Source: a virus (taxonomy: Duplodnaviria > Heunggongvirae > Uroviricota > Caudoviricetes). Taken from it: a stretch of 39,099 bases of DNA. Both the position numbers and the translations under genes were made by a program. Each line of letters starts with the position of its first letter. Position 1 is the stretch's first letter. Below are positions 2,370-35,947 of this stretch, piece by piece. The notes under the pieces are model-generated. The model had not been told where the DNA came from. It was given only the letters and a program-made list of their open reading frames with translations, and did not search any database. The stretch lies in IMG/VR virus record IMGVR_UViG_2537561603_000005. One strand, written 5' to 3'.

Positions 2370-2451
2370 AATAAAAAAATAACCCGAGGGGTGACTCAGG
2401 TTATTTGAAGTTTCAGTCTCGGAGAATGCTGTCTCAAGCGAGGTGAATAAT

Positions 2452-3384
2452 ATGACCGATATTAACGATGTAATCAAGACCATTGATGAGCTGATTGATG
2501 GCGGCATACTGACACAGTATGCCATCGCCAGAGAAGCGGGAATTTCCGACGGCACATTATCGGCTTTCCGTAAGGGAAAATATAAAGGCGATAACGCTGC
2601 TGTGGCTGCTTCCCTGCGTTCCTGGTGTGAGAACTGGAATAAACAAAGCGCACTGCCCGAGCCGCCGCAGTTTGTGGAAACGCAGACAGTCCTGGAGCTG
2701 CGCGCACTGTTTCAGGCGGTTCGCCTGATGGGCTGTATTAACGTCATTGTGGGTGTACCGGGTGTGGGTAAAACGGCCACCGCCCGTAATTACTGTCAGG
2801 AGCAACCGAACACCTGGATGATAACCCTGTCTCCCGCGCATTCCAGCGTCACGGAGTGTCTGCTGGAGCTGGCAGAGGAGCTGGGGATTGATTACACCCG
2901 CGCGAACAAAGGGGCATTATCCCGCGCCATCCGTCGTCGCCTGATGGGAACGCGTGGACTGGTGATTGTTGATGAGGCGGATCATCTTGGTATTGACGGT
3001 CTGGAGCAGCTCCGGGCAATCCAGGACGCCACGGGGATCGGGATGGTGCTTATTGGTAACCCGCGCGGGTTGTTTAAAGGTGGACGCCGCGCCTTTGATG
3101 ATTTATCGCGCCTGTTCAGCCGTCTTGCCCGTACAAAACAACTTCGCAAGGCCAAAAAGGCGGATGTGCTGGCCATTGCCAGGGCGTGGGGTATCAGTGG
3201 TGAGGCCGAGCTGGCCGTCATGCAGGCTATCGCTGAAAAGCCGGGAGCGTTACGCGTTCTGACACATACGCTTAACCAGGCGTGGCTCACCGCCAGCGGT
3301 GAAGGCGCGGCGCTGACAGAAAAACATATTAATGCGGCCTTTAAAGAGGTTTATACCAACCCTGAATTACTCTCACAGGTGTGA
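2452..3384 (+). CDS. B: Transposition ATPase B (MuB-like AAA+ protein)
   Basis: Walker A GVPGVGKT, Walker B-like VIVDEADHLG, ALPEPPQFVETQTV block shared with recalled MuB; ATG at 2452 preceded by GAGGTG (track ORF starts at GTG 2443). Confidence 0.85.
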   Translation: MTDINDVIKTIDELIDGGILTQYAIAREAGISDGTLSAFRKGKYKGDNAAVAASLRSWCENWNKQSALPEPPQFVETQTVLELRALFQAVRLMGCINVIVGVPGVGKTATARNYCQEQPNTWMITLSPAHSSVTECLLELAEELGIDYTRANKGALSRAIRRRLMGTRGLVIVDEADHLGIDGLEQLRAIQDATGIGMVLIGNPRGLFKGGRRAFDDLSRLFSRLARTKQLRKAKKADVLAIARAWGISGEAELAVMQAIAEKPGALRVLTHTLNQAWLTASGEGAALTEKHINAAFKEVYTNPELLSQV

Positions 3385-17863: not shown

Positions 17864-18988
17864 ATGAAGACGAAAAACACGCCCAAACTTGCTTATGCCA
17901 TTCTGAATGCCATCAGCCTGTCCGCAGACGGGGACGGTGACTGGTGTCAGATCATGCCAGCCGGTCGGGTAAAGGCCCGTGACGGTCGCCCGGAAAAACC
18001 GGCGGAAGGCTGGCTGATTAACCATGCGGCCGTTGAGCGCATGGTATCCGGGGTTGTGGCACTCAATCAGCCGGTGAAGATTGACTATAACCACCAGTCA
18101 CTGATTGAGGGACATGCGGCACCGGCTGCCGGTTTTGTCATGGCCTCGCCGGAGAACTTCCGTTTCAGTGAAGAGCGTGGTTTTGAAGTGCGTCCGAAGT
18201 GGAACCCTCCGGCCATTGAACACCTGCGCAATAACGAATTTCCCTGGTTTTCCCCGGTGATTGGTTATGACGAGAGCACCGGCGAACCTGTCGAACTTCG
18301 GATGCTGGCTATTACCGGTGACCCCGGTCTGACCGGCATGAATCCTGTCGCCGCACTGTCGGCGGATGACCTTTATAACGCCTTAAACCCTCCTTTAAAG
18401 GACACCTCCATGAATGAGCAATTACGCCAGTTGCTGACGGCGCTCGGTCTGACCGTGGCCGACGGTGACGAATTTACACCGGAACTGGGCACGGCGGCGC
18501 TGTCTGCCCTTACCGGGATCAAAACCCGTGCGGATGCGCACGACACCCTGAAAACGCAGGTTGCCAGCCTGTCGGCAGAGCTGGAAACCGCAAAAGGCAC
18601 ACCAACTGGCGGCACTATTGATCTGACGAAATACGTGCCGGTTGAGACGTATAACGCCCTGCGTACCGAATATGCCGCGCTGTCGGCACAACACGGCAGC
18701 ACCACGCTGGAGCAGTTGCTGGATAAGGCCGAGTCCGAAGGACGCATTTTCAAAAGCGAACGCGGATACATGGAAGGACTCGGACAACAGATTGGCGTCG
18801 CGGCACTTTCTGCACAGCTTGACGCCCGCCAGCCGGTTGCGGCTCTGACCACTCTTCAGACCGACACCGTAACCGTGCCGGATAAAAAGACCGCCACCGC
18901 TGTGCTGTCGGCTGAAGATATCGCCGCCGCACGTCTGCTGGGTAAAACCGAAGCCGAGTTCCTGAAAATGAAAGAGGAAATGCAATAA
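17864..18988 (+). CDS. I: head protease / scaffold protein I (Mu gp32-like)
   Basis: 374 aa immediately upstream of the major capsid gene; Ala/Leu-rich helical C-terminal half typical of scaffold. Confidence 0.75.
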   Translation: MKTKNTPKLAYAILNAISLSADGDGDWCQIMPAGRVKARDGRPEKPAEGWLINHAAVERMVSGVVALNQPVKIDYNHQSLIEGHAAPAAGFVMASPENFRFSEERGFEVRPKWNPPAIEHLRNNEFPWFSPVIGYDESTGEPVELRMLAITGDPGLTGMNPVAALSADDLYNALNPPLKDTSMNEQLRQLLTALGLTVADGDEFTPELGTAALSALTGIKTRADAHDTLKTQVASLSAELETAKGTPTGGTIDLTKYVPVETYNALRTEYAALSAQHGSTTLEQLLDKAESEGRIFKSERGYMEGLGQQIGVAALSAQLDARQPVAALTTLQTDTVTVPDKKTATAVLSAEDIAAARLLGKTEAEFLKMKEEMQ

Positions 18989-19935
18989 TGCCTACCCCGA
19001 TTACACCGGCGATGATCACCGCCCTGATGACGGGCTACCGTTCTGATTTTCAGGCCGGGATGTCCATGGCTCCGTCGCAGTACCAGAAAATTGCGATGAC
19101 CGTGCCGTCCACGTCGAAATCCAACACCTACGGCTGGCTGGGGCAGTTCCCGCAGTTCCGTGAGTGGATCGGCTCCCGCGTCATCGAGAAGATGAAAGCC
19201 TATGGCTACGCCATCGTGAACAAAACCTTTGAAGGCACCGTTGCCATTAGCCGCGATGACTTTGAAGACGACAATCTCGGCATCTACTCCCCGTTATTCC
19301 AGGAAATGGGTCGTGCCGCTGCGGCACAACCGGATGAACTGGTCTTTGCTGCACTGCGTGATGGTCTGAATGCGGCCTGCTATGACGGCCAGAACTTCTT
19401 TGATACCGAACACCCTGTTTACCCCAAAGTGGATGGCTCCGGTGATGCACAGATGGTCAGCAATATGTTTGTGGCAAAAACCGGCTCTGTCGGTGCACAG
19501 GCGGATTACAGCGGCCCGGCCTGGTATCTGCTTGACTGCTCCCGCGCGGTAAAACCGCTGATTTATCAGGATCGCCGCAAGGCCGAACTGGTTGCCCAGA
19601 CAAAAGTCGATGAAGGCCGTGCGTTTACTGATAACGAGTTTGTGTTCGGTGCTTCCGCCCGTCGCAATGTGGGCTACGGCTTCTGGCAGATGGCCTACAT
19701 GATGCAGTCACCGCTGACGCTGGATGCGCTGTGGCACGGCTGGTCAGCCATGCGTGACTTTAAGGCTGACGGTGGCCGCAAACTCGGCATCAAACCAACC
19801 CATATTGTTGTCCCCACCTCGCTGGAAAAACAGGCGGTGCAGCTGCTGGAGCGCGAGCTGTTCGCGGACGGTAACACCACCGTCTCTAACGAGATGAAGG
19901 GCAAGCTGGAGCTGGTTGTCGCGGATTATCTGTAA
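18988..19935 (+). CDS. T: major capsid protein T (Mu gp34-like)
   Basis: 315 aa, start ATG overlaps I stop (TAATG); followed by a GC hairpin; gene order. Confidence 0.8.
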   Translation: MPTPITPAMITALMTGYRSDFQAGMSMAPSQYQKIAMTVPSTSKSNTYGWLGQFPQFREWIGSRVIEKMKAYGYAIVNKTFEGTVAISRDDFEDDNLGIYSPLFQEMGRAAAAQPDELVFAALRDGLNAACYDGQNFFDTEHPVYPKVDGSGDAQMVSNMFVAKTGSVGAQADYSGPAWYLLDCSRAVKPLIYQDRRKAELVAQTKVDEGRAFTDNEFVFGASARRNVGYGFWQMAYMMQSPLTLDALWHGWSAMRDFKADGGRKLGIKPTHIVVPTSLEKQAVQLLERELFADGNTTVSNEMKGKLELVVADYL

Positions 19936-21347: not shown

Positions 21348-21626
21348 ATGACAACCATTTTTATTAAACCTGCGCCGGGATGCCTGATTCGCGATCCCGA
21401 CACGATGACTCCGCTCTCACAGGACGGTGAAGAGAAACCCTTCACTCCGTTCTGGTGCCGCCGTCTTAATGATGGCGACGTCATTGTGGTGGATAAAACG
21501 GCGGAGCCTGCCCCGGCTGCCACAACAGGTAATACCGGCGAGGCTGCAAAACCAGCGGGAGCGGCAGCAGAAAAACCTGCGGCGGCGGCTGAAAAACCCG
21601 CAGCATCAGACAAGGGGACTTCCTGA
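21348..21626 (+). CDS. Mu gp38-like protein with Ala/Pro/Lys-rich C-terminus
   Basis: 92 aa; C-terminal AAAEKPAAAAEKPAA repeat; immediately upstream of the sheath gene. Confidence 0.5.
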   Translation: MTTIFIKPAPGCLIRDPDTMTPLSQDGEEKPFTPFWCRRLNDGDVIVVDKTAEPAPAATTGNTGEAAKPAGAAAEKPAAAAEKPAASDKGTS

Positions 21627-23107
21627 TGATTAACTTTGATAACATCGGCGATAACAATCGTATTCCGCTGGTACAGATTGAAATCAATAACTCAATGGCC
21701 GTGACCGGCACGCCGCCGCAGCGTCAGGCGGTGCTGTTGTTTGGTCAGCGAAACCGTAATGCGTTCGGTGCCGTGGATTCTCCTGTCCGTATCACCCGCG
21801 CGTCTCAGGCAACAGAACTCTGGGGGCGTGGCTCCATGATTGCGCAGATGGTGGCAGCGTTTATTGCCATTAACCCTGATACGGAACTGTACGGCATTGC
21901 TCAGGGGGAAGGCACCGGCACGGCCACGTCCGGCACCATCACGCTTTCCGGTACGGCAACGGAAGACAATGTACTGAATCTCTATGTTGCCGGGCGTCCT
22001 TACCGTCTGGCCGTCAGCAAAGGCAAACCGGGCAATCTCCTGGCGGATGCGCTTGCCGCGATGATTAACGCTGACCAGGACAGTCCGGTGAGTGCGAGTA
22101 CTTCCGTCCCTGCGGATAATCAGGATCAGACCAAAAAAGTGATCACCCTGGCGGCGAAATTTACCGGCGAATGCTCCGTGCATGATATCCGGCTGAATTA
22201 TTATTCCGGTGAAGTGACACCTGCCGGGCTTGTGGTGTCGGTTGCCGGTGGCACCGCGCCGAAAAACCCGGATATTACCAACAGCATCGCTGCCATGGGG
22301 ACGCGCCAGTATAACTATATTGTGATGCCCTATAAGGATGCGGCGAATCTCAAAATTCTGGCGGAAGAACTGCTGAAACGCTGGGGACCGGTAAAAATGT
22401 CAGACGGTATGGTCTGGATGGCGCATACCGGCACCTTCGGCACGGCAACCAGTTTTGGTGAGTCCCGTAATGATTTCCTGTTCACCTGTACCTCCATTCC
22501 GAAGGCACCGGAGCCGGATTATGTCTGGGCGGCCTCCATTTGTGCGGTCTGTGCGCCGTCACTGTCTGCCGATCCTGCCCGCCCGCTCCAGACGCTGGCG
22601 TTGCCTGCACGACTGGCCCCGGCAGAATCAGATCGCCTGACACGGGAGGAGCGAAACAGCCTGCTTTATACCGGCATGTCCACGGTGACCGTCGCGGCGG
22701 CTGATGTGGTGCAGATTGAACGTCAGGTGACGATGTACCGTCAGAATGCATACGGCGAAAGCGATCCCAGCTATCTGGATGTGGAAACCATCTACACCCT
22801 GTCATATCTGCGTTATTCACTGCGCACCTTTATCACGCAGCGTTTCCCGCGCCATAAACTGGCCGATAACGGCACCCCCGTCCGGCCCGGTCAGAATATC
22901 GTGACGCCGGAGATCATGACGCTCCAGCTGATTGCGCTGGGGGAAGAATGGGTGGATCTGGGACTGGTCGAAAATCTGGACACCTTTAAAAAGAATCTGC
23001 TCGTGGAGCGCAACACAAAAGACCGTAACCGTCTGGATGTGATGTGTACACCGGATCTGGTTAACCAGTTCCGCTTCATGGCCGCGCAGATCCGTTTCAT
23101 TTTGTGA
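21626..23107 (+). CDS. L: tail sheath protein L
   Basis: 493 aa, followed directly by a ~120-aa tube gene, as in contractile tails. Confidence 0.8.
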   Translation: MINFDNIGDNNRIPLVQIEINNSMAVTGTPPQRQAVLLFGQRNRNAFGAVDSPVRITRASQATELWGRGSMIAQMVAAFIAINPDTELYGIAQGEGTGTATSGTITLSGTATEDNVLNLYVAGRPYRLAVSKGKPGNLLADALAAMINADQDSPVSASTSVPADNQDQTKKVITLAAKFTGECSVHDIRLNYYSGEVTPAGLVVSVAGGTAPKNPDITNSIAAMGTRQYNYIVMPYKDAANLKILAEELLKRWGPVKMSDGMVWMAHTGTFGTATSFGESRNDFLFTCTSIPKAPEPDYVWAASICAVCAPSLSADPARPLQTLALPARLAPAESDRLTREERNSLLYTGMSTVTVAAADVVQIERQVTMYRQNAYGESDPSYLDVETIYTLSYLRYSLRTFITQRFPRHKLADNGTPVRPGQNIVTPEIMTLQLIALGEEWVDLGLVENLDTFKKNLLVERNTKDRNRLDVMCTPDLVNQFRFMAAQIRFIL

Positions 23108-23115
23108 GGTAAGGC

Positions 23116-23481
23116 ATGAGCGGAAAACAGTATCAGGGCACGGCCACCATCCGTGTGAACGGACAGGAGTACGCCACCCTTGAGGGAGCCACGTTCTCCC
23201 CGTCCGGCTTTGAGCGTGAAGTGGTGAAAGGCGCGAAAGTTTACGGCTATCGCGAGAAACCCCGTGAGGCGACGCTGGACTGTAAATTTCCGGCTGGCGG
23301 AGAAGGTTCACCGGCTACCGATGAAATCAACACCTGGACTGCGGTGACGATTGAGTTTGTGGCCGATACCGGTGAAGTCCACATGATGACGAAGGCCTGG
23401 AGCAGTGAACCGGCCTCGCTTGACGGTGGCGGTGATATCTCCGCGAAGTTCGCCAGCGCCACCAGTACCCGTGTCCAGTAA
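23116..23481 (+). CDS. M: tail tube protein M
   Basis: 121 aa immediately after the sheath gene. Confidence 0.75.
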   Translation: MSGKQYQGTATIRVNGQEYATLEGATFSPSGFEREVVKGAKVYGYREKPREATLDCKFPAGGEGSPATDEINTWTAVTIEFVADTGEVHMMTKAWSSEPASLDGGGDISAKFASATSTRVQ

Positions 23482-23495
23482 TCAGGAAAAATGTA

Positions 23496-23972
23496 ATGAG
23501 CACACGTAAGAAAAAAACGGCGGTTTCTGACGAGGCCGTGATGGCGGCTATCCGGGATGCACTTGAGGACGGCGATCCCCGCACCGCCGGGCTGGCTGAA
23601 CAGCTGGCGAACGGCTATGTGGATCTGCTCGACGGCCTGCCGTTCGGTGAATCCCGTGAATATCGCGTCACCTTCCGCGAACTGACAGCGAAAGACAGCA
23701 TTGATGCGGAGAGTGAGGCCGAGCGTCTTATGGAAACCCGAAACGGTCCGGTTCTGGTGGCCTCACCGGCACTGCGCGGTATTGCGCTGCTGCGCCGTCA
23801 GATTGCCGCTGTCGGTCAGGTTGAGGGGCCATTGTCTCCGCGTCAGATCGGACAGCTCAGCGAGCGCGATCTCTCCCGCCTGATGGCGGCGGTAAGCCTG
23901 CTTGACTCGGCGATGGCCGGAAAGCTGGTCGCTGAACGGGGGCGAACAGATGCAGTGCCGGGATCAGATTGA
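23496..23972 (+). CDS. tail assembly chaperone (gene upstream of tape measure)
   Basis: 158 aa acidic protein directly upstream of tape measure; a second ORF in another frame (23902..24096) overlaps its 3' end. Confidence 0.55.
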   Translation: MSTRKKKTAVSDEAVMAAIRDALEDGDPRTAGLAEQLANGYVDLLDGLPFGESREYRVTFRELTAKDSIDAESEAERLMETRNGPVLVASPALRGIALLRRQIAAVGQVEGPLSPRQIGQLSERDLSRLMAAVSLLDSAMAGKLVAERGRTDAVPGSD

Positions 23973-24099
23973 AGAAGCCGCAATTGTGCTGGGGATGGTG
24001 ACAAAAAGCGGCCCGGAATGGGCGCTTAACCTCCCCTTATCGCAGCTTTACCGGCACTGCCGACAGACCGAAAAAATTCTCAGAACGAAGCAGTAACCC

Positions 24100-26157
24100 A
24101 TGGCAAAAAACCTGAAAGCCTCCCTGATTGTCGATTTACTCGGCAATATTTCCGCCAAATCCCGCCAGTGGTCACAGGAGCTGGGGGCATTCTCCCGTTC
24201 CGGCAGGACAGGCCTGGGTGGTCTTGGAAATGCAGCCCGCCGGGCCGGTCAGGAAACAGAACTTGTCGGTTCCCGTATGCAGCGAACGCTTGCCGGTGTT
24301 CGTGGCAGCATCCGCACGGTAACGTCAGATTTTGACCGCCTGCAGGGCAGCATTACCGGCACCATCGGGCGGATAAGCAACCTTTACGGGATGCTGGCGG
24401 GAGGGGCTGCGGTCTACGGTTTTAATAAAGCCTTTATCCGCCCGGCCGCAGAGATGGAGAACTATATTCTGCGTCTCAACGCCATTAATCATGGCGATAA
24501 GGCAAAAACGGAAGCAGTGAAAGCCTGGGCAGTACAGAACGCCAAAGACACCACCTGGGGGCTGGCGGGGGTTATGCAGGAATACGCCTCCAGTCGCGGG
24601 TTTGGCATGAGTGACAGGGAAGCCCGTCGCTTTATTACCATGCTTCAGGATCAGGGCGGCTATCACGGCTGGTCACTGTCAGATGCACAGGGTGCGTCCC
24701 TGCAACTCAAACAGATGTTTACCCGCCAGAGTATCCAGGCAGCGGACGCCAATATTCTGACCGGATACGGGATTAACATTTACCAGTTACTGGCCGATAA
24801 GCTGGGCGTAAACCAGAAGCTCATCCGTGAGAAAGGCGAAAAAGGAAAACTGGGGCCGGACAGCATTCGCCTGTTATTTCAGGTGATGGCCGAACAGGCA
24901 AAAGGTGCCCAGAAAAACGCCATGAATTCCTGGACGGGAATGACGTCCATGATGGGCGACGTCTGGGATCAGTTTGCCCGTGAAGTGATGGCAAAGGGAC
25001 CGTTTGACAGCCTGAAAAAGAGCCTGAAAGGCTTTCTGGATTATGCTGATGCGGCACAGAAAAGCGGCTTACAGGATAAGCTGGCCACACAGACGGCCTC
25101 AGCCCTGAATCAGGGATTTGAGTATGCCAGAGACGCTGCGACCGGCTTTTACCGGGCCATTCAGAAAGTCAGGGAAACGCTTCAGGCACTGCGTGACGCC
25201 GGTTATGGCGATGCTCTGGATCGCATTGGTCAGGGTGCGCAGACCGCCGCGAAGTACCTGATGTATATGTATCTCGCCTCCCGTGCGCTGAAGGTGCTCA
25301 GGTTTGCGGGGACGGGGGCATTACGTCTCGGTGCAACTCCCTTACGCTATGGTATGGCGATGACCTCTGTGCTGACGTCGCCCTTCCGCAAACCGCAGAC
25401 CACTGTGCCGGGAACGCAGCCCGGACGCGCTGGCCGCTTCCTGAATTTCCTTACCGGGGTAAATCCGGCTGCCGTTCAGCCTGTGCTGGTCACCAACTGG
25501 CCTGCTGGGGGCCTGGCATCAGGTGGCGGGGATGTGGTGGTCAGCGGTGACGGCAAAACCGTGCGCGGCCGTAAAAAACGCGGCCCCGGACGCGGGCGGG
25601 GTGTCACGACCGTCGTGACTGCCGGTGAGCAACTGGCGGAGAGTGCCGGTAAACAGGGCTTCTTCGGTCGTATAATGAGCCGTGCCGGTGGTCTGCTTTC
25701 GGCTGCCGGAAACCGCATGGGGCTGGGGCGTTTTGCCGGGCTGTTCCGTGGTGCCGGTCGGCTGGGTGGGGGTGCCCTGTGGGCCGGTGCCATGGCGGCT
25801 CCTGTACTGCTGGACAGCAGCGCCAGCGCAGCCGATAAAGCCGGTGCCGTGGGTTCTCTTGCCGGAAGTATCGCCGGTGGCGCGCTGGGGGCGGCTGCCG
25901 GTCCGGTCGGGGTTGCCATTGGTTCCACAGTGGGCAGCTATCTCGGTGATTATCTGGGGGGCTGGCTGACGCAGGCCTGGCAGAAACTGCGTGGCGGCAG
26001 TGACGAAAACGGCGGACAGGCCACCGCGAAAACCGCCGCACGGGTGGAGCTTGTGGCCCCTGAAGGCTGGCGGGCACGCAGTATTGATGTGGATGATACC
26101 GCACAGCATGGCCTGGATGTGAACGTCTGGAACGGAGGGAACTATGGCCTCTACTGA
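24100..26157 (+). CDS. tail tape measure protein
   Basis: 685 aa, helical N-terminal two-thirds and Gly/Ala-rich C-terminal third; location after chaperone. Confidence 0.8.
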   Translation: MAKNLKASLIVDLLGNISAKSRQWSQELGAFSRSGRTGLGGLGNAARRAGQETELVGSRMQRTLAGVRGSIRTVTSDFDRLQGSITGTIGRISNLYGMLAGGAAVYGFNKAFIRPAAEMENYILRLNAINHGDKAKTEAVKAWAVQNAKDTTWGLAGVMQEYASSRGFGMSDREARRFITMLQDQGGYHGWSLSDAQGASLQLKQMFTRQSIQAADANILTGYGINIYQLLADKLGVNQKLIREKGEKGKLGPDSIRLLFQVMAEQAKGAQKNAMNSWTGMTSMMGDVWDQFAREVMAKGPFDSLKKSLKGFLDYADAAQKSGLQDKLATQTASALNQGFEYARDAATGFYRAIQKVRETLQALRDAGYGDALDRIGQGAQTAAKYLMYMYLASRALKVLRFAGTGALRLGATPLRYGMAMTSVLTSPFRKPQTTVPGTQPGRAGRFLNFLTGVNPAAVQPVLVTNWPAGGLASGGGDVVVSGDGKTVRGRKKRGPGRGRGVTTVVTAGEQLAESAGKQGFFGRIMSRAGGLLSAAGNRMGLGRFAGLFRGAGRLGGGALWAGAMAAPVLLDSSASAADKAGAVGSLAGSIAGGALGAAAGPVGVAIGSTVGSYLGDYLGGWLTQAWQKLRGGSDENGGQATAKTAARVELVAPEGWRARSIDVDDTAQHGLDVNVWNGGNYGLY

Positions 26158-33868: not shown

Positions 33869-35947
33869 ATGTCAGACTCCCAGTGGAAAATGCTCTCCGC
33901 CATGCCCGGAGAGTTTTCAGTCAAGGTTGCCGGTGGCACGGTGGCATTTATTGAAAGTCCTTTCAGGCCTTCGGGTAATAAAGGGGGGATCACCTTCGCA
34001 GACTGTGTGATCCGCTTCAGCACGAAAGAGCCATTATGGGTAATGCCGGTATCCGGCAATCCCAGCGCAGAAATCACCAGTTCAGGCGTGACCGGCATTA
34101 TTCCGATCACATCTGACGTGGCCGGAACACTCACGCCTTCTGACTGGAATGCACCGGATAACGCCGGACCGTCTGGCGGTACAAATGGCAGCAGTACAGA
34201 GCCGGAGTATTACTATGTGCTTCCACTGGCCGGGCAGTCCAACGGGATGGCCTACGGTGAAGGGCTTCCGCTACCGGCTTCATTCGACCGCCCTGAACCG
34301 CGCATTAAGCAACTGGCACGTCGCAGCACGGTAACGCCAGATGGTACGTCGTGCACATATAACGACATCATTCCCGCAGACCACTGCCTGCATGATGTGC
34401 AGGACATGAGCGGGATAAACCACCCGAAAGCTGATCTGGCAAAAGGCCAGTACGGGACTGTCGGTCAGGGGCTGCATATTGCCAAAAAACTGCTGCCTTA
34501 CATCCCGCAGAATGCCGGGATACTTCTGGTGCCCTGTTGCCGTGGCGGGTCAGCATTCACCACCGGGGATGACGGCTCATTCAGTGAGGCCAGCGGTGCT
34601 TCCGCTGATTCTTCACGCTGGGGTGCCGGTAAACCCCTGTATCAGGACCTGGTAAGCCGCACCAGAGCGGCGCTGGCGAAGAACCCGAAAAACAAACTTC
34701 TGGCCGTGGTATGGATGCAGGGAGAGGCAGACCTTGCATCGGGAAGTCAGCAGCATAATGGTTTATTCACGACCATGGTTCAGCAGTTCAGAACTGACCT
34801 GTCTCCGCTTGCTGCGCAGTGTGTGAGAGGAAATACCACCACGGTGCCGTGGATTTGCGGTGATACCACGTATTACTGGAAAAACCTTGGCACCGATAAA
34901 TATGAGGCAGTATACGGTGGCTACAAAGGCAAGGAAGCACAGAAAATTTTCTTTGTACCGTTCCTGACGGATGAGAATGGACAGAACACGCCAACGAATG
35001 CTCCGGCGGAAGACCCGGATATTGTGGCTGTCGGGTATTACGGTGCGGCATCCCGTACCCAGGGCAGTTTTGTCTCCACACAGCGTGACAGCCATTTCAG
35101 CTCATGGGCACGCAGGGGCATCATTTCTGACCGTCTGGCCTCAGCCATTCTGCTCCATGCGGGACGCACACCTGAAGTGATGCAGGGACCGGTTGTGACA
35201 CAGCCGGATGAAAAACCATCACCTGACACGCCATCAACACCATCGCCGGATACACCCTCCACACCACCGGCTGACACCACGACGATGAGCACCCTGTTTG
35301 CTTACCGGGCATCAGAGTCTGAAGGACAGCTGGCACCACAGGGCTGGACTGCCGGAGGCGGTAAGGCCCAAATCGTGGATGATGCCGGAGCAGGTAGTGG
35401 TAAGGCCATGAAACTGACCAAGGAAACAGGCAAATCCTCCTGGTACCTTGAGCATGATGCCGGTAATGGTGCGGACCTGCTGGGTAAAGGTGGCCTTGTC
35501 AGTTGCCGGTTTAAGGTTGATGGTGCGCTTACGGCTAATCAGTACGCGATGGCGCTGTACTGGCCGGTTTCTGCCCTGCCGCAAGGGGTTACTCTGGAAG
35601 GTAATGCCGGTCATAACCTGCTGGCATCGTTTTACGTTCAGAGCGATGCCACAGACCTTAACGTGATGTACCACAAGGGCAATACGGCGCAAAACACGAA
35701 ACTGGGGTCATTCGGTGCATTTAATAACGAATGGCATACGCTGGGCTTCCGTTTTGCCGGTAACAACAGTATTGAGGTGACGCCGGTCATTGATGGTAAG
35801 GACGGGACACCATTCATGCTGTCGCAGTCTCCGGTCGGCACGTTTACGGCAGACAAGTTGCGCGTGACCGATATCACTAACGGTGCAACATACCCGGTGC
35901 TGATTGACAGCATTGTGGTGGAGGTTAATACCCCGTCAGCGGGATAA
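33869..35947 (+). CDS. SGNH/SASA-type carbohydrate esterase-like protein with Pro/Thr linker and C-terminal lectin-like domain (accessory gene)
   Basis: LPLAGQSNGMAYGE (GQSN esterase motif) about 115 aa from the N-terminus; linker PDEKPSPDTPSTPSPDTPSTPPADTT; beta-rich C-terminal domain. Confidence 0.55.
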   Translation: MSDSQWKMLSAMPGEFSVKVAGGTVAFIESPFRPSGNKGGITFADCVIRFSTKEPLWVMPVSGNPSAEITSSGVTGIIPITSDVAGTLTPSDWNAPDNAGPSGGTNGSSTEPEYYYVLPLAGQSNGMAYGEGLPLPASFDRPEPRIKQLARRSTVTPDGTSCTYNDIIPADHCLHDVQDMSGINHPKADLAKGQYGTVGQGLHIAKKLLPYIPQNAGILLVPCCRGGSAFTTGDDGSFSEASGASADSSRWGAGKPLYQDLVSRTRAALAKNPKNKLLAVVWMQGEADLASGSQQHNGLFTTMVQQFRTDLSPLAAQCVRGNTTTVPWICGDTTYYWKNLGTDKYEAVYGGYKGKEAQKIFFVPFLTDENGQNTPTNAPAEDPDIVAVGYYGAASRTQGSFVSTQRDSHFSSWARRGIISDRLASAILLHAGRTPEVMQGPVVTQPDEKPSPDTPSTPSPDTPSTPPADTTTMSTLFAYRASESEGQLAPQGWTAGGGKAQIVDDAGAGSGKAMKLTKETGKSSWYLEHDAGNGADLLGKGGLVSCRFKVDGALTANQYAMALYWPVSALPQGVTLEGNAGHNLLASFYVQSDATDLNVMYHKGNTAQNTKLGSFGAFNNEWHTLGFRFAGNNSIEVTPVIDGKDGTPFMLSQSPVGTFTADKLRVTDITNGATYPVLIDSIVVEVNTPSAG

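What the first reader, a model, noticed from the sequence alone, without database searches (positions are those of the whole stretch)
23496..24096. Possible programmed frameshift in the tail assembly chaperone
A second ORF in the +1 frame overlaps the last ~70 nt of the chaperone gene and extends ~125 nt further, ending just before tape measure. This is the arrangement expected for a chaperone made in short and frameshift-extended forms (lambda G/GT paradigm). I did not find a canonical -1 slippery heptamer; a stop-proximal +1 event or a G-run (CGGGGGC near 23936) are candidates.
Basis: partly seen in the sequence, partly recalled or inferred. Interest (0 to 1): 0.4.

Follow-up and report, generated by a model that had tools for sequence, protein, structure and literature searches.

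The report
Mu-type tail chaperone frameshift site
The overlap is real: it is this Mu-like E. coli prophage's copy of the programmed frameshift described for phage Mu, which makes a short and an extended tail-assembly chaperone, so it is genuine but ordinary and merely unannotated.

Summary
Confirmed, and already explained by known biology. The window is a complete Mu-like prophage. Its gp41-type tail assembly chaperone gene (23496-23972) is overlapped by a +1-frame ORF (23902-24096; frame open from 23896). That ORF ends 3 nt before the tape measure ATG (24100).

The in-frame 12-mer GAA CGG GGG CGA (23934-23945) is identical in Mu, D108 and SfMu, whose gp41 is only 47-49% identical to this one.

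[quoted passage not shown] The 51-aa extension is a conserved protein: 25/51 identical to Mu, phrog_12783 E 9e-37, with substitutions concentrated at +1-frame third positions. Frame boundaries in relatives confine the shift to about 17 nt around the G-run.

There is no canonical -1 heptamer, no conserved start codon for the extension, and no significant downstream RNA structure in the window or in Mu.

Most likely mechanism, as reported for Mu: peptidyl-tRNA-Gly slips back 2 nt on the G-run, giving a 200-aa fusion next to the 158-aa chaperone. A -2 shift cannot be told from +1 by sequence. Low interest; RefSeq simply leaves a 127-nt gap here.

The parts
23116..23481 (+). Tail tube protein gene (context: the chaperone pair sits between tube and tape measure).
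   Evidence: PF10618 Tail_tube, E 4.9e-30.
23496..23972 (+). Frame-0 gene for the short product, a 158-aa gp41-type tail assembly chaperone (16.9 kDa).
   Evidence: PF23746 Gp41_Mu E 6.3e-32. phrog_508 tail assembly chaperone E 3.4e-44. 47-49% identical to D108/SfMu gp41. Mass.
23934..23945 (+). Conserved shift cassette GAA CGG GGG CGA in frame 0. The G-run is 23938-23942, the proposed P-site codon GGG is 23940-23942, and the proposed A-site codon CGA is 23943-23945.
   Evidence: Identical 12-mer, in the same frame, in Mu, D108 and SfMu. [CGG/AAG/GAG] GGG CG[A/T] is present in 80 of 82 loci. Frame boundaries in relatives confine the shift to -8..+8 nt around G 23940.
23941..24096 (+). Extension read after a -2 shift: GGC GAA CAG ... 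TAA, 51 codons plus stop. It gives a 200-aa fusion of 21.9 kDa; a +1 shift would start at 23944 and give 199 aa.
   Evidence: Translations. phrog_12783 E 9e-37 over the full profile. 25/51 identical to Mu/D108 and 35/51 to the Citrobacter/Salmonella type. Third-position excess of substitutions in the +1 frame.
23896..24096 (+).
24100..26157 (+). Tape measure protein gene, starting 3 nt after the extension's stop codon.
   Evidence: PF20155 TMP_3 E 1.4e-17.

Best explanation
This is a programmed ribosomal frameshift of the phage Mu type. Most ribosomes translate 23496-23972 and release the 158-aa chaperone. A minority shift at the G-run. With peptidyl-tRNA-Gly on GGG (23940-23942) and the rarely used Arg codon CGA (23943-23945) in the A site, the tRNA slips back 2 nt onto the identical GGG at 23938-23940. 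Decoding then resumes at GGC (23941) in the +1 frame and runs to TAA at 24094-24096. The product is a 200-aa fusion, ...LVAERG-GEQMQCRDQIEE...RTKQ. By analogy with lambda gpG/gpGT, the shared N-terminal part would coat the tape measure protein, and the 51-aa C-terminal extension would recruit the tail tube subunit. Neither form would stay in the virion. Shown here: the ORF geometry, homology of both parts to Mu, identity of the shift cassette, and comparative localisation of the shift. Taken from the literature on Mu: that a shift happens, that it is -2, and that it runs at roughly 2% in vivo. Inferred: that the same holds for this prophage, and the roles of the two domains.
For: Gene order sheath-tube-gp41-TMP-N-P and Pfam assignments. 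The +1 ORF ends 3 nt before the TMP start. GAA CGG GGG CGA is identical and in the same frame in Mu, D108 and SfMu, although the only stretch of the 1.3-kb region with detectable DNA similarity to Muvirus is window 23898-24074, the overlap plus extension. 80 of 82 loci with gp41 identity of 36-98% keep the site and the +1 extension. The extension is conserved as protein and matches phrog_12783 at E 9e-37. Differences from close relatives fall on +1-frame third positions: 13/19, 10/15 and 9/14, binomial p = 0.002-0.017. The +1 frame opens as late as 8 nt before, and frame 0 stops as early as 9 nt after, the first G of GGG. The nucleotide before GGG is G in every locus although that codon changes between Arg, Lys and Glu (CGG, AAG, GAG). 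This is a third codon position that matters for -2 re-pairing but not for +1. Codon use in this phage: CGG is 16% of Arg codons, AAG 32% of Lys, GAG 39% of Glu, CGA 4.7% of Arg. Literature: -2 frameshifting in Mu (PMC5009743), the 'only known natural case' at the time with efficiency about 2.2% (PMC3498833), and a Mu 10-mer alone giving 14% shifting into the -2/+1 frame in a purified system (bioRxiv 10.1101/2025.10.02.679949). That last result fits the lack of a significant downstream structure here.
Against: No protein data exist for this prophage, so direction and efficiency are borrowed from Mu. I could not read the primary paper (Xu, Hendrix and Duda 2004, not held), so the exact Mu shift codon is my inference from the sequence, not a quotation. 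In 21 of the 80 loci with the motif the run is only 4 G (AAG GGG or GAG GGG), so a -2 slip would land on AGG with a first-position mismatch. The family-wide invariant is GGG CGA rather than G5. Conservation of CGA is confounded by dual coding, because its G and A are the first two bases of a conserved Asp/Glu codon in the +1 frame. No stimulatory structure or upstream element was identified in the window.
Confidence: 0.72

Rival explanations
1. Same site and same biological purpose, but the ribosome shifts +1. Peptidyl-tRNA-Gly moves from GGG to GGC while the A site waits on the slowly decoded CGA. The next codon read is GAA (23944) and the fusion is 199 aa, with one Gly fewer.
For: The invariant across all clades is GGG CGA, not five Gs. 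The 21 loci with AAG GGG or GAG GGG cannot re-pair perfectly at -2. CGA is only 4.7% of Arg codons in this phage. The reporter assay on the Mu 10-mer could not separate -2 from +1, as its authors state. The -2 and +1 products are indistinguishable by sequence analysis.
Against: The literature gives -2 for Mu (PMC5009743; PMC3498833), and the window's cassette is identical to Mu's. The base before GGG is always G and the one before that always a purine, although the encoded residue varies; a +1 slip gives no reason for this. GGG to GGC leaves a C:C or U:C wobble mismatch.
Confidence: 0.17
2. The downstream ORF is a separate small gene, as D108 annotates '41.5'. It would start at ATG 23950 with the G-run 7 nt upstream acting as a Shine-Dalgarno sequence, and no frameshift would be needed.
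For: ATG 23950 is in the +1 frame, 7 nt after GGGGG. The homologous codon is ATG, CTG or TTG in 14 of 21 distinct sequence contexts. D108 annotates a separate CDS starting at that CTG.
Against: In 7 of 21 contexts, including the common E. coli O157-type and Salmonella/Citrobacter prophages, that codon is GCG, GAG or AAC. The first canonical start in the +1 ORF ranges from -80 to +91 nt or is absent. The +1 frame is open through the G-run in all 80 loci with the motif. A fusion protein is reported for Mu (PMC3498833).
Confidence: 0.05
3. RNA polymerase slips on the G-run, dropping one G or adding two, so a fraction of mRNAs encode the fusion in one frame.
For: The site is a homopolymer. A two-G insertion would give the same extra Gly as a -2 ribosomal shift. 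DNA-level G4 variants that fuse the frames exist in databases (P0002, P0100, P0101).
Against: From general knowledge, known bacterial transcriptional slippage uses longer runs, mostly A/T of 7-9 or more; here the run is 5 G, and 4 G in many relatives. In a related locus the same extension is reached from a classical ribosomal heptamer, G GGA AAG (L065). The G4 database variants are DNA-level variants of the run, and the P0002 contig has several broken genes, which suggests homopolymer sequencing errors.
Confidence: 0.04
4. The +1 ORF is a chance open frame, or the remnant of a frameshift mutation in a once longer gene.
For: An open +1 stretch of this length has P of about 0.06 by itself. The motif alone is not rare.
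Against: The same two-frame arrangement, site and extension protein are conserved in 80 of 82 loci down to 36% gp41 identity.
Confidence: 0.01

Closest known systems
Phage Mu gp41 and its frameshift-extended form (Xu, Hendrix and Duda 2004, Mol Cell 16:11, as cited in PMC5009743, PMC3498833 and PMC2628397)
   Same: Homologous chaperone (PF23746; 47% identity to the D108 protein, which belongs to the species Muvirus mu). Homologous 51-aa extension (25/51). Identical cassette GAA CGG GGG CGA in the same frame. Extension in the +1/-2 frame ending just before the tape measure gene. Same place in the tail module.
   Different: It is a different phage lineage, an E. coli Mu-like prophage that some sources label 'FluMu gp41'. 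Frame 0 runs 30 nt past GGG instead of 24. The gap to the TMP start is 3 nt instead of 14. There is no experimental evidence for this lineage.
Lambda gpG/gpGT
   Same: A short and a frameshift-extended chaperone encoded just upstream of the tape measure gene. The expected division of labour is that the common part binds the tape measure protein and the extension binds the tube or major tail protein.
   Different: Lambda uses a tandem -1 slip on G GGA AAG. No sequence similarity was detected. The tail here is contractile.
E. coli prfB (RF2) +1 frameshift
   Same: Access to the +1 frame by slippage of a single P-site tRNA next to a G-rich, Shine-Dalgarno-like sequence while the A site is slow to be filled.
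   Different: RF2 needs a stop codon in the A site and an SD 3 nt upstream of the slip codon. Here the A-site codon is a sense codon (CGA), the frame-0 stop is 24 nt beyond it, and the G-run is itself the slip codon.
Arterivirus nsp2TF -2 frameshift
   Same: A -2 shift giving access to the +1 frame.
   Different: It is eukaryotic, uses G_GUU_UUU, is trans-activated by a viral protein bound downstream, and runs at about 20% (PMC5009743). It is unrelated in sequence and function.

Membership tests
Mu-type tail assembly chaperone frameshift (gp41 / gp41-extended) | Located between the tail tube gene and the tape measure gene of a tailed phage. | tested here: met
   Tube 23116-23481, chaperone 23496-23972, TMP 24100-26157.
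Mu-type tail assembly chaperone frameshift (gp41 / gp41-extended) | The upstream ORF is homologous to Mu gp41. | tested here: met
   PF23746 Gp41_Mu E 6.3e-32. 47-49% identity to D108/SfMu gp41.
Mu-type tail assembly chaperone frameshift (gp41 / gp41-extended) | An overlapping ORF in the +1 (= -2) frame runs to just before the tape measure start. | tested here: met
   23896/23902-24096, TMP ATG at 24100. Same geometry in Mu, D108 and SfMu.
Mu-type tail assembly chaperone frameshift (gp41 / gp41-extended) | The extension peptide is homologous to the Mu extension. | tested here: met
   25/51 identical to Mu/D108. phrog_12783 E 9e-37.
Mu-type tail assembly chaperone frameshift (gp41 / gp41-extended) | Same shift cassette as Mu, in the same frame. 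| tested here: met
   GAA CGG GGG CGA at 23934-23945, identical in L081 (Mu), L001 (D108) and L002 (SfMu).
Mu-type tail assembly chaperone frameshift (gp41 / gp41-extended) | Two proteins are made from one mRNA, the longer one by a -2 shift at low frequency. | not testable with these tools
   Needs expression and mass spectrometry. Reported for Mu only (PMC3498833).
Lambda-type canonical -1 G/GT frameshift | An X_XXY_YYZ heptamer in frame near the 3' end, with the extension in the -1 frame. | tested here: not met
   No in-frame heptamer in 23496-23972. The -1 frame stops 29 nt past the gene end. A distant relative, L065, does meet this with G GGA AAG.
RF2-type stop-codon-dependent +1 frameshift | The slip codon is immediately followed by the frame-0 stop codon, with an SD about 3 nt upstream. 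| tested here: not met
   The frame-0 stop codon begins 30 nt after the first G of the GGG codon (24 nt after CGA). The distance from GGG to the stop varies from 6 to 30 nt among relatives.
Frameshift sites with a 3' stimulatory RNA structure | A stable or covarying stem-loop or pseudoknot 5-9 nt downstream of the slip site. | tested here: not met
   Window z = -0.06 (60 nt) and -1.16 (90 nt); Mu z = +0.43. The family consensus fold is only -8.6 kcal/mol. A 5-bp helix (alignment columns 47-51 with 69-73) is 84% paired but confounded by coding. Only the clade L063-L076 has a strong hairpin (z = -4.1).
Transcriptional slippage sites | A long homopolymer run, typically 7-9 or more A/T (general knowledge). 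| tested here: not met
   The run is G5 here, and G4 in 21 of the 80 loci with the motif.

The most novel reading that the evidence does not exclude
Across the gp41 family the invariant is GGG CGA preceded by a purine and a G, not a run of five Gs. Two clades (AAG GGG CGA, GAG GGG CGA) cannot re-pair perfectly after a -2 slip, and one of them adds a stop codon and a 13-bp hairpin directly after CGA. So the family, possibly including this prophage, might reach the +1 frame by a +1 P-site slip at GGG_C driven by the slow CGA codon, or by a mixture of -2 and +1. In that case the textbook '-2' label for the Mu site would not describe the family-wide mechanism.
Probability: 0.18. Interest if true: 0.4.

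Novelty: new member of a known kind. Interest (0 to 1): 0.15.

Why it matters
It matters mainly for annotation. [quoted passage not shown] The region occurs in 229 of 5426 complete E. coli genomes. A 200-aa product that is probably essential for tail assembly is therefore missing from protein catalogues. The comparative set assembled here also pins the Mu-type shift to about 17 nt. It shows natural variants of the site (G5, G4 with Lys or Glu codons, a lambda-type heptamer, a stop-adjacent hairpin). These would be ready-made material for anyone dissecting how bacterial ribosomes perform a -2 shift. It does not open a new question.

Tried and rejected
1. Canonical -1 frameshift: rejected. There is no heptamer and the -1 frame is closed.
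2. Stop-proximal +1 event: rejected. The stop position is not conserved relative to the site.
3. Downstream stimulatory RNA structure. Single-sequence folds of the window and of Mu are no better than shuffles. The alignment fold is weak. A candidate 5-bp helix beat the shuffled and slid controls but lies in dual or single coding sequence, with only one pair changing on both sides. It is not claimed.
4. The genome-contig scan with the gp41 alignment returned a single locus, because the peptide patterns were too specific. The viral-contig scan gave 73 loci.
5. The primary papers are not held: Xu et al. 2004 and Baranov et al. 2006. Text searches for the motif in the literature found nothing relevant. 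The 10-mer used for Mu in the 2025 preprint is not in the held text or supplement.
6. There is no NCBIfam model and no solved structure by sequence for the fusion.
7. Structure prediction of the fusion was not attempted. It would not bear on whether or where the shift occurs.
8. The natural in-frame fusion proteins P0002, P0100 and P0101 were considered as evidence for a fused gene. They are G4 variants of the run, and the P0002 contig is riddled with broken genes, so they are treated as probable homopolymer errors or defective prophages.

Full report
OBSERVATION. The window holds an ORF at 23496-23972 (158 aa) and a second ORF at 23902-24096. The second ORF is offset by 406 nt, which puts it in the +1 frame. 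It overlaps the first by 71 nt and runs 124 nt past it. It ends with TAA at 24094-24096, 3 nt before the ATG of the next long gene at 24100. The +1 frame is stop-free from 23896. The -1 frame closes 29 nt after the first gene's stop. No in-frame X_XXY_YYZ heptamer exists in the gene, and the only run of 5 identical bases near its end is GGGGG at 23938-23942. Taken alone it is weak evidence. A 67-codon open +1 stretch has P of about 0.06 in this phage's genes, and RGGGGCGA occurs once against 3.4 expected.

CONTEXT. The window is a complete Mu-like prophage. It carries MuA transposase (267-2369), MuB (2443-3384), Mu portal, MuF, the gpT major head protein and Mom (37261-38193). A host fimbrial usher gene lies at the right edge. 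Around the finding the order is tail sheath (21626-23107), tail tube (23116-23481), Gp41_Mu chaperone (PF23746, E 6e-32), tape measure protein (24100-26157), DNA circularisation protein N, and baseplate gpP. The exact chaperone protein is catalogued from E. coli as 'Mu-like prophage FluMu protein gp41' or 'phage tail assembly protein'. The region is present at 80% identity or more in 229 of 5426 complete E. coli genomes.

COMPARISON WITH MU. A sensitive DNA search of 23100-24400 against phage genomes matched Muvirus members (D108, SfMu and the Yersinia Mu-like phages) only over window 23898-24074, which is the overlap plus the extension. In Mu, D108 and SfMu the end of gene 41 reads ...CAA GAA CGG GGG CGA GTG GCT GCG GTG CCG GAA TGA. 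The window reads ...GCT GAA CGG GGG CGA ACA GAT GCA GTG CCG GGA TCA GAT TGA. The 12-mer GAA CGG GGG CGA is therefore identical and in the same frame, although the chaperones are only 47-49% identical. Downstream, in the +1 frame, D108 annotates a separate 'gene 41.5'. Its product aligns with the window's extension as follows.
- Mu/D108: GEWLRCRNDIEKAATAIGVILKSGPEWALSLPLSRFFRHCQQAKTLSQYHR
- Window: GEQMQCRDQIEEAAIVLGMVTKSGPEWALNLPLSQLYRHCRQTEKILRTKQ
These share 25 of 51 residues. The extension matches phrog_12783 (function unknown) end to end at E 9e-37, whereas Pfam and NCBIfam have no model for it.

WIDER COMPARISON. I assembled 81 related loci: Mu, D108, SfMu, four E. coli prophages, one Citrobacter locus and 73 IMG/VR contigs. 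Their gp41 identity to the window ranges from 36% to 98%. With the window that makes 82 loci.
- Site: 80 of 82 have, in frame near the 3' end of gp41, [CGG | AAG | GAG] GGG CGA (CGT in one). It is followed by a +1-frame ORF extending 118-136 nt beyond the frame-0 stop and, in most, ending 0-14 nt before the tape measure start.
- Extension: it is conserved as protein throughout the enterobacterial clades. Against close relatives the differences fall on third positions of the +1 frame: 13 of 19, 10 of 15 and 9 of 14, binomial p = 0.002, 0.009 and 0.017.
- Localisation: in one clade the +1 frame only opens 8 nt before the first G of the GGG codon. In another, frame 0 stops immediately after CGA. 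If the site is homologous across the family, the shift must happen within about 17 nt centred on the G-run and CGA.
- Start codons: the first canonical start in the +1 ORF lies anywhere from -80 to +91 nt, or is missing. The codon homologous to the window's ATG 23950 is ATG, CTG or TTG in some clades but GCG, GAG or AAC in others. Independent initiation therefore cannot be the general way the extension is expressed.
- Exceptions: the two exceptions are informative. L065 has the lambda heptamer G GGA AAG at the end of gp41, and its extension, homologous to that of L077, is in the -1 frame. L062 has a six-G run and a -1-frame extension.

LITERATURE. Programmed -2 frameshifting in the tail assembly genes of phage Mu was reported by Xu, Hendrix and Duda (2004). 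I could not read that paper. Three papers I could read cite it.
- Atkins et al. [quoted passage not shown]
- Firth et al. [quoted passage not shown]
- The KS10 genome paper also cites it (PMC2628397).
In addition, a 2025 preprint measured 14% shifting into the -2/+1 frame for a Mu 10-mer alone in a purified translation system. Its authors note that the assay cannot separate -2 from +1 (10.1101/2025.10.02.679949).

MECHANISM. The best-supported reading has peptidyl-tRNA-Gly on GGG (23940-23942) while the A site holds CGA, which is 4.7% of Arg codons in this phage. The tRNA slips back 2 nt to the identical GGG at 23938-23940. GGC (23941-23943) is then read, followed by GAA CAG ATG ... to TAA. 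This gives a 200-aa, 21.9-kDa fusion beside the 158-aa, 16.9-kDa chaperone.

One comparative argument favours -2 over +1. The base just before GGG is G in every locus, and the base before that is always a purine. Yet the codon they belong to changes between Arg (CGG), Lys (AAG) and Glu (GAG), none of which is the preferred synonym in this phage. Those positions matter for -2 re-pairing and not for +1.

Three points count against certainty. The clades with four Gs would re-pair on AGG with a mismatch. CGA conservation is confounded by the overlapping Asp/Glu codon of the +1 frame. Sequence alone cannot distinguish the two directions.

I found no significant downstream structure in the window or in Mu: z = -0.06, -1.16 and +0.43, with a weak consensus fold. 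This fits the finding that the short site alone is active in vitro. The functional roles (common part on the tape measure protein, extension recruiting the tube protein, neither in the virion) are inferred from the lambda gpG/gpGT work summarised in PMC5009743 and are not tested here.

RIVALS. A +1 slip at the same site remains possible (about 0.17). The others are unlikely for the reasons given in their entries: separate initiation at ATG 23950 using the G-run as SD (about 0.05), transcriptional slippage on G5 (about 0.04), and chance or pseudogene (about 0.01).

VERDICT. It is a further member of a kind known since 2004, with a cassette identical to the prototype. What is new is only that it is unannotated. 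RefSeq leaves a 127-nt gap here, in the relatives inspected and in Mu itself. Interest is low.

Noticed in passing
L063-L076 (e.g. L066 1834-1875): In one clade of gp41 relatives (39-44% identity) the site is GAG GGG CGA (AAG in L076) followed at once by the frame-0 stop TAG. Six nt later there is a 13-bp hairpin, GCAGTGCGTTCGG/TCGAGCGCACTGC (MFE -27.6 kcal/mol, z = -4.1, 1 of 200 shuffles as good). This variant of the Mu-type site, with only four Gs, an adjacent stop and a strong structure, might differ in direction or efficiency.
   Followed up: partly
L065 1795-1960; L062 1830-1990: Two gp41 homologues reach their extension through the -1 frame. L065 uses the lambda heptamer G GGA AAG, and its extension (…FRLATWTHWS…) is homologous to the +1-frame extension of L077. 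L062 uses a six-G run. The type of frameshift has therefore switched within one protein family.
   Followed up: partly
L082 1905-1915; L083 1818-1828 (proteins P0100, P0101, P0002): Database proteins that fuse gp41 and the extension in one frame come from contigs with GGGG instead of GGGGG. The P0002 contig (GCA_900449035.1) also has split sheath, gp41 and tape measure genes, suggesting homopolymer errors. The Mu-type L082 contig (Logan ERR1010218) has intact neighbours and could be a real one-G deletion.
   Followed up: partly
window 1-39099: The window is a whole Mu-like prophage: MuA 267-2369, MuB 2443-3384, portal 14180-15778, MuF 15762-17087, major head gpT 18988-19935, Mom-family protein 37261-38193. 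A host fimbrial usher gene (PapC_N/Usher) is cut by the right edge at 38317-39099 on the minus strand. The right prophage end should therefore lie between about 38200 and 38320.
   Followed up: partly
window 33869-35947 (+): A 692-aa ORF between the tail fibre region and mom carries a SASA sialate/carbohydrate O-acetylesterase domain (E 7e-13) and DUF6645 (E 2.5e-68). It could be a receptor-modifying or tail-associated esterase. It has no counterpart that I know of in Mu.
   Followed up: no
window 23973-24099; L003-L006; L081: RefSeq/PGAP annotation of four E. coli genomes, and of Mu itself, leaves the 127-145 nt between gp41 and the tape measure gene without any feature. D108 calls it a separate CDS '41.5' with a CTG start. 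The frameshift product is absent from the records examined.
   Followed up: yes
window 23898-24074: Within the 1.3-kb tube-chaperone-TMP junction, this is the only stretch with blastn-detectable similarity to Muvirus genomes (69-71% identity). Nucleotide conservation peaks at the shift site, the dual-coding overlap and the extension.
   Followed up: yes
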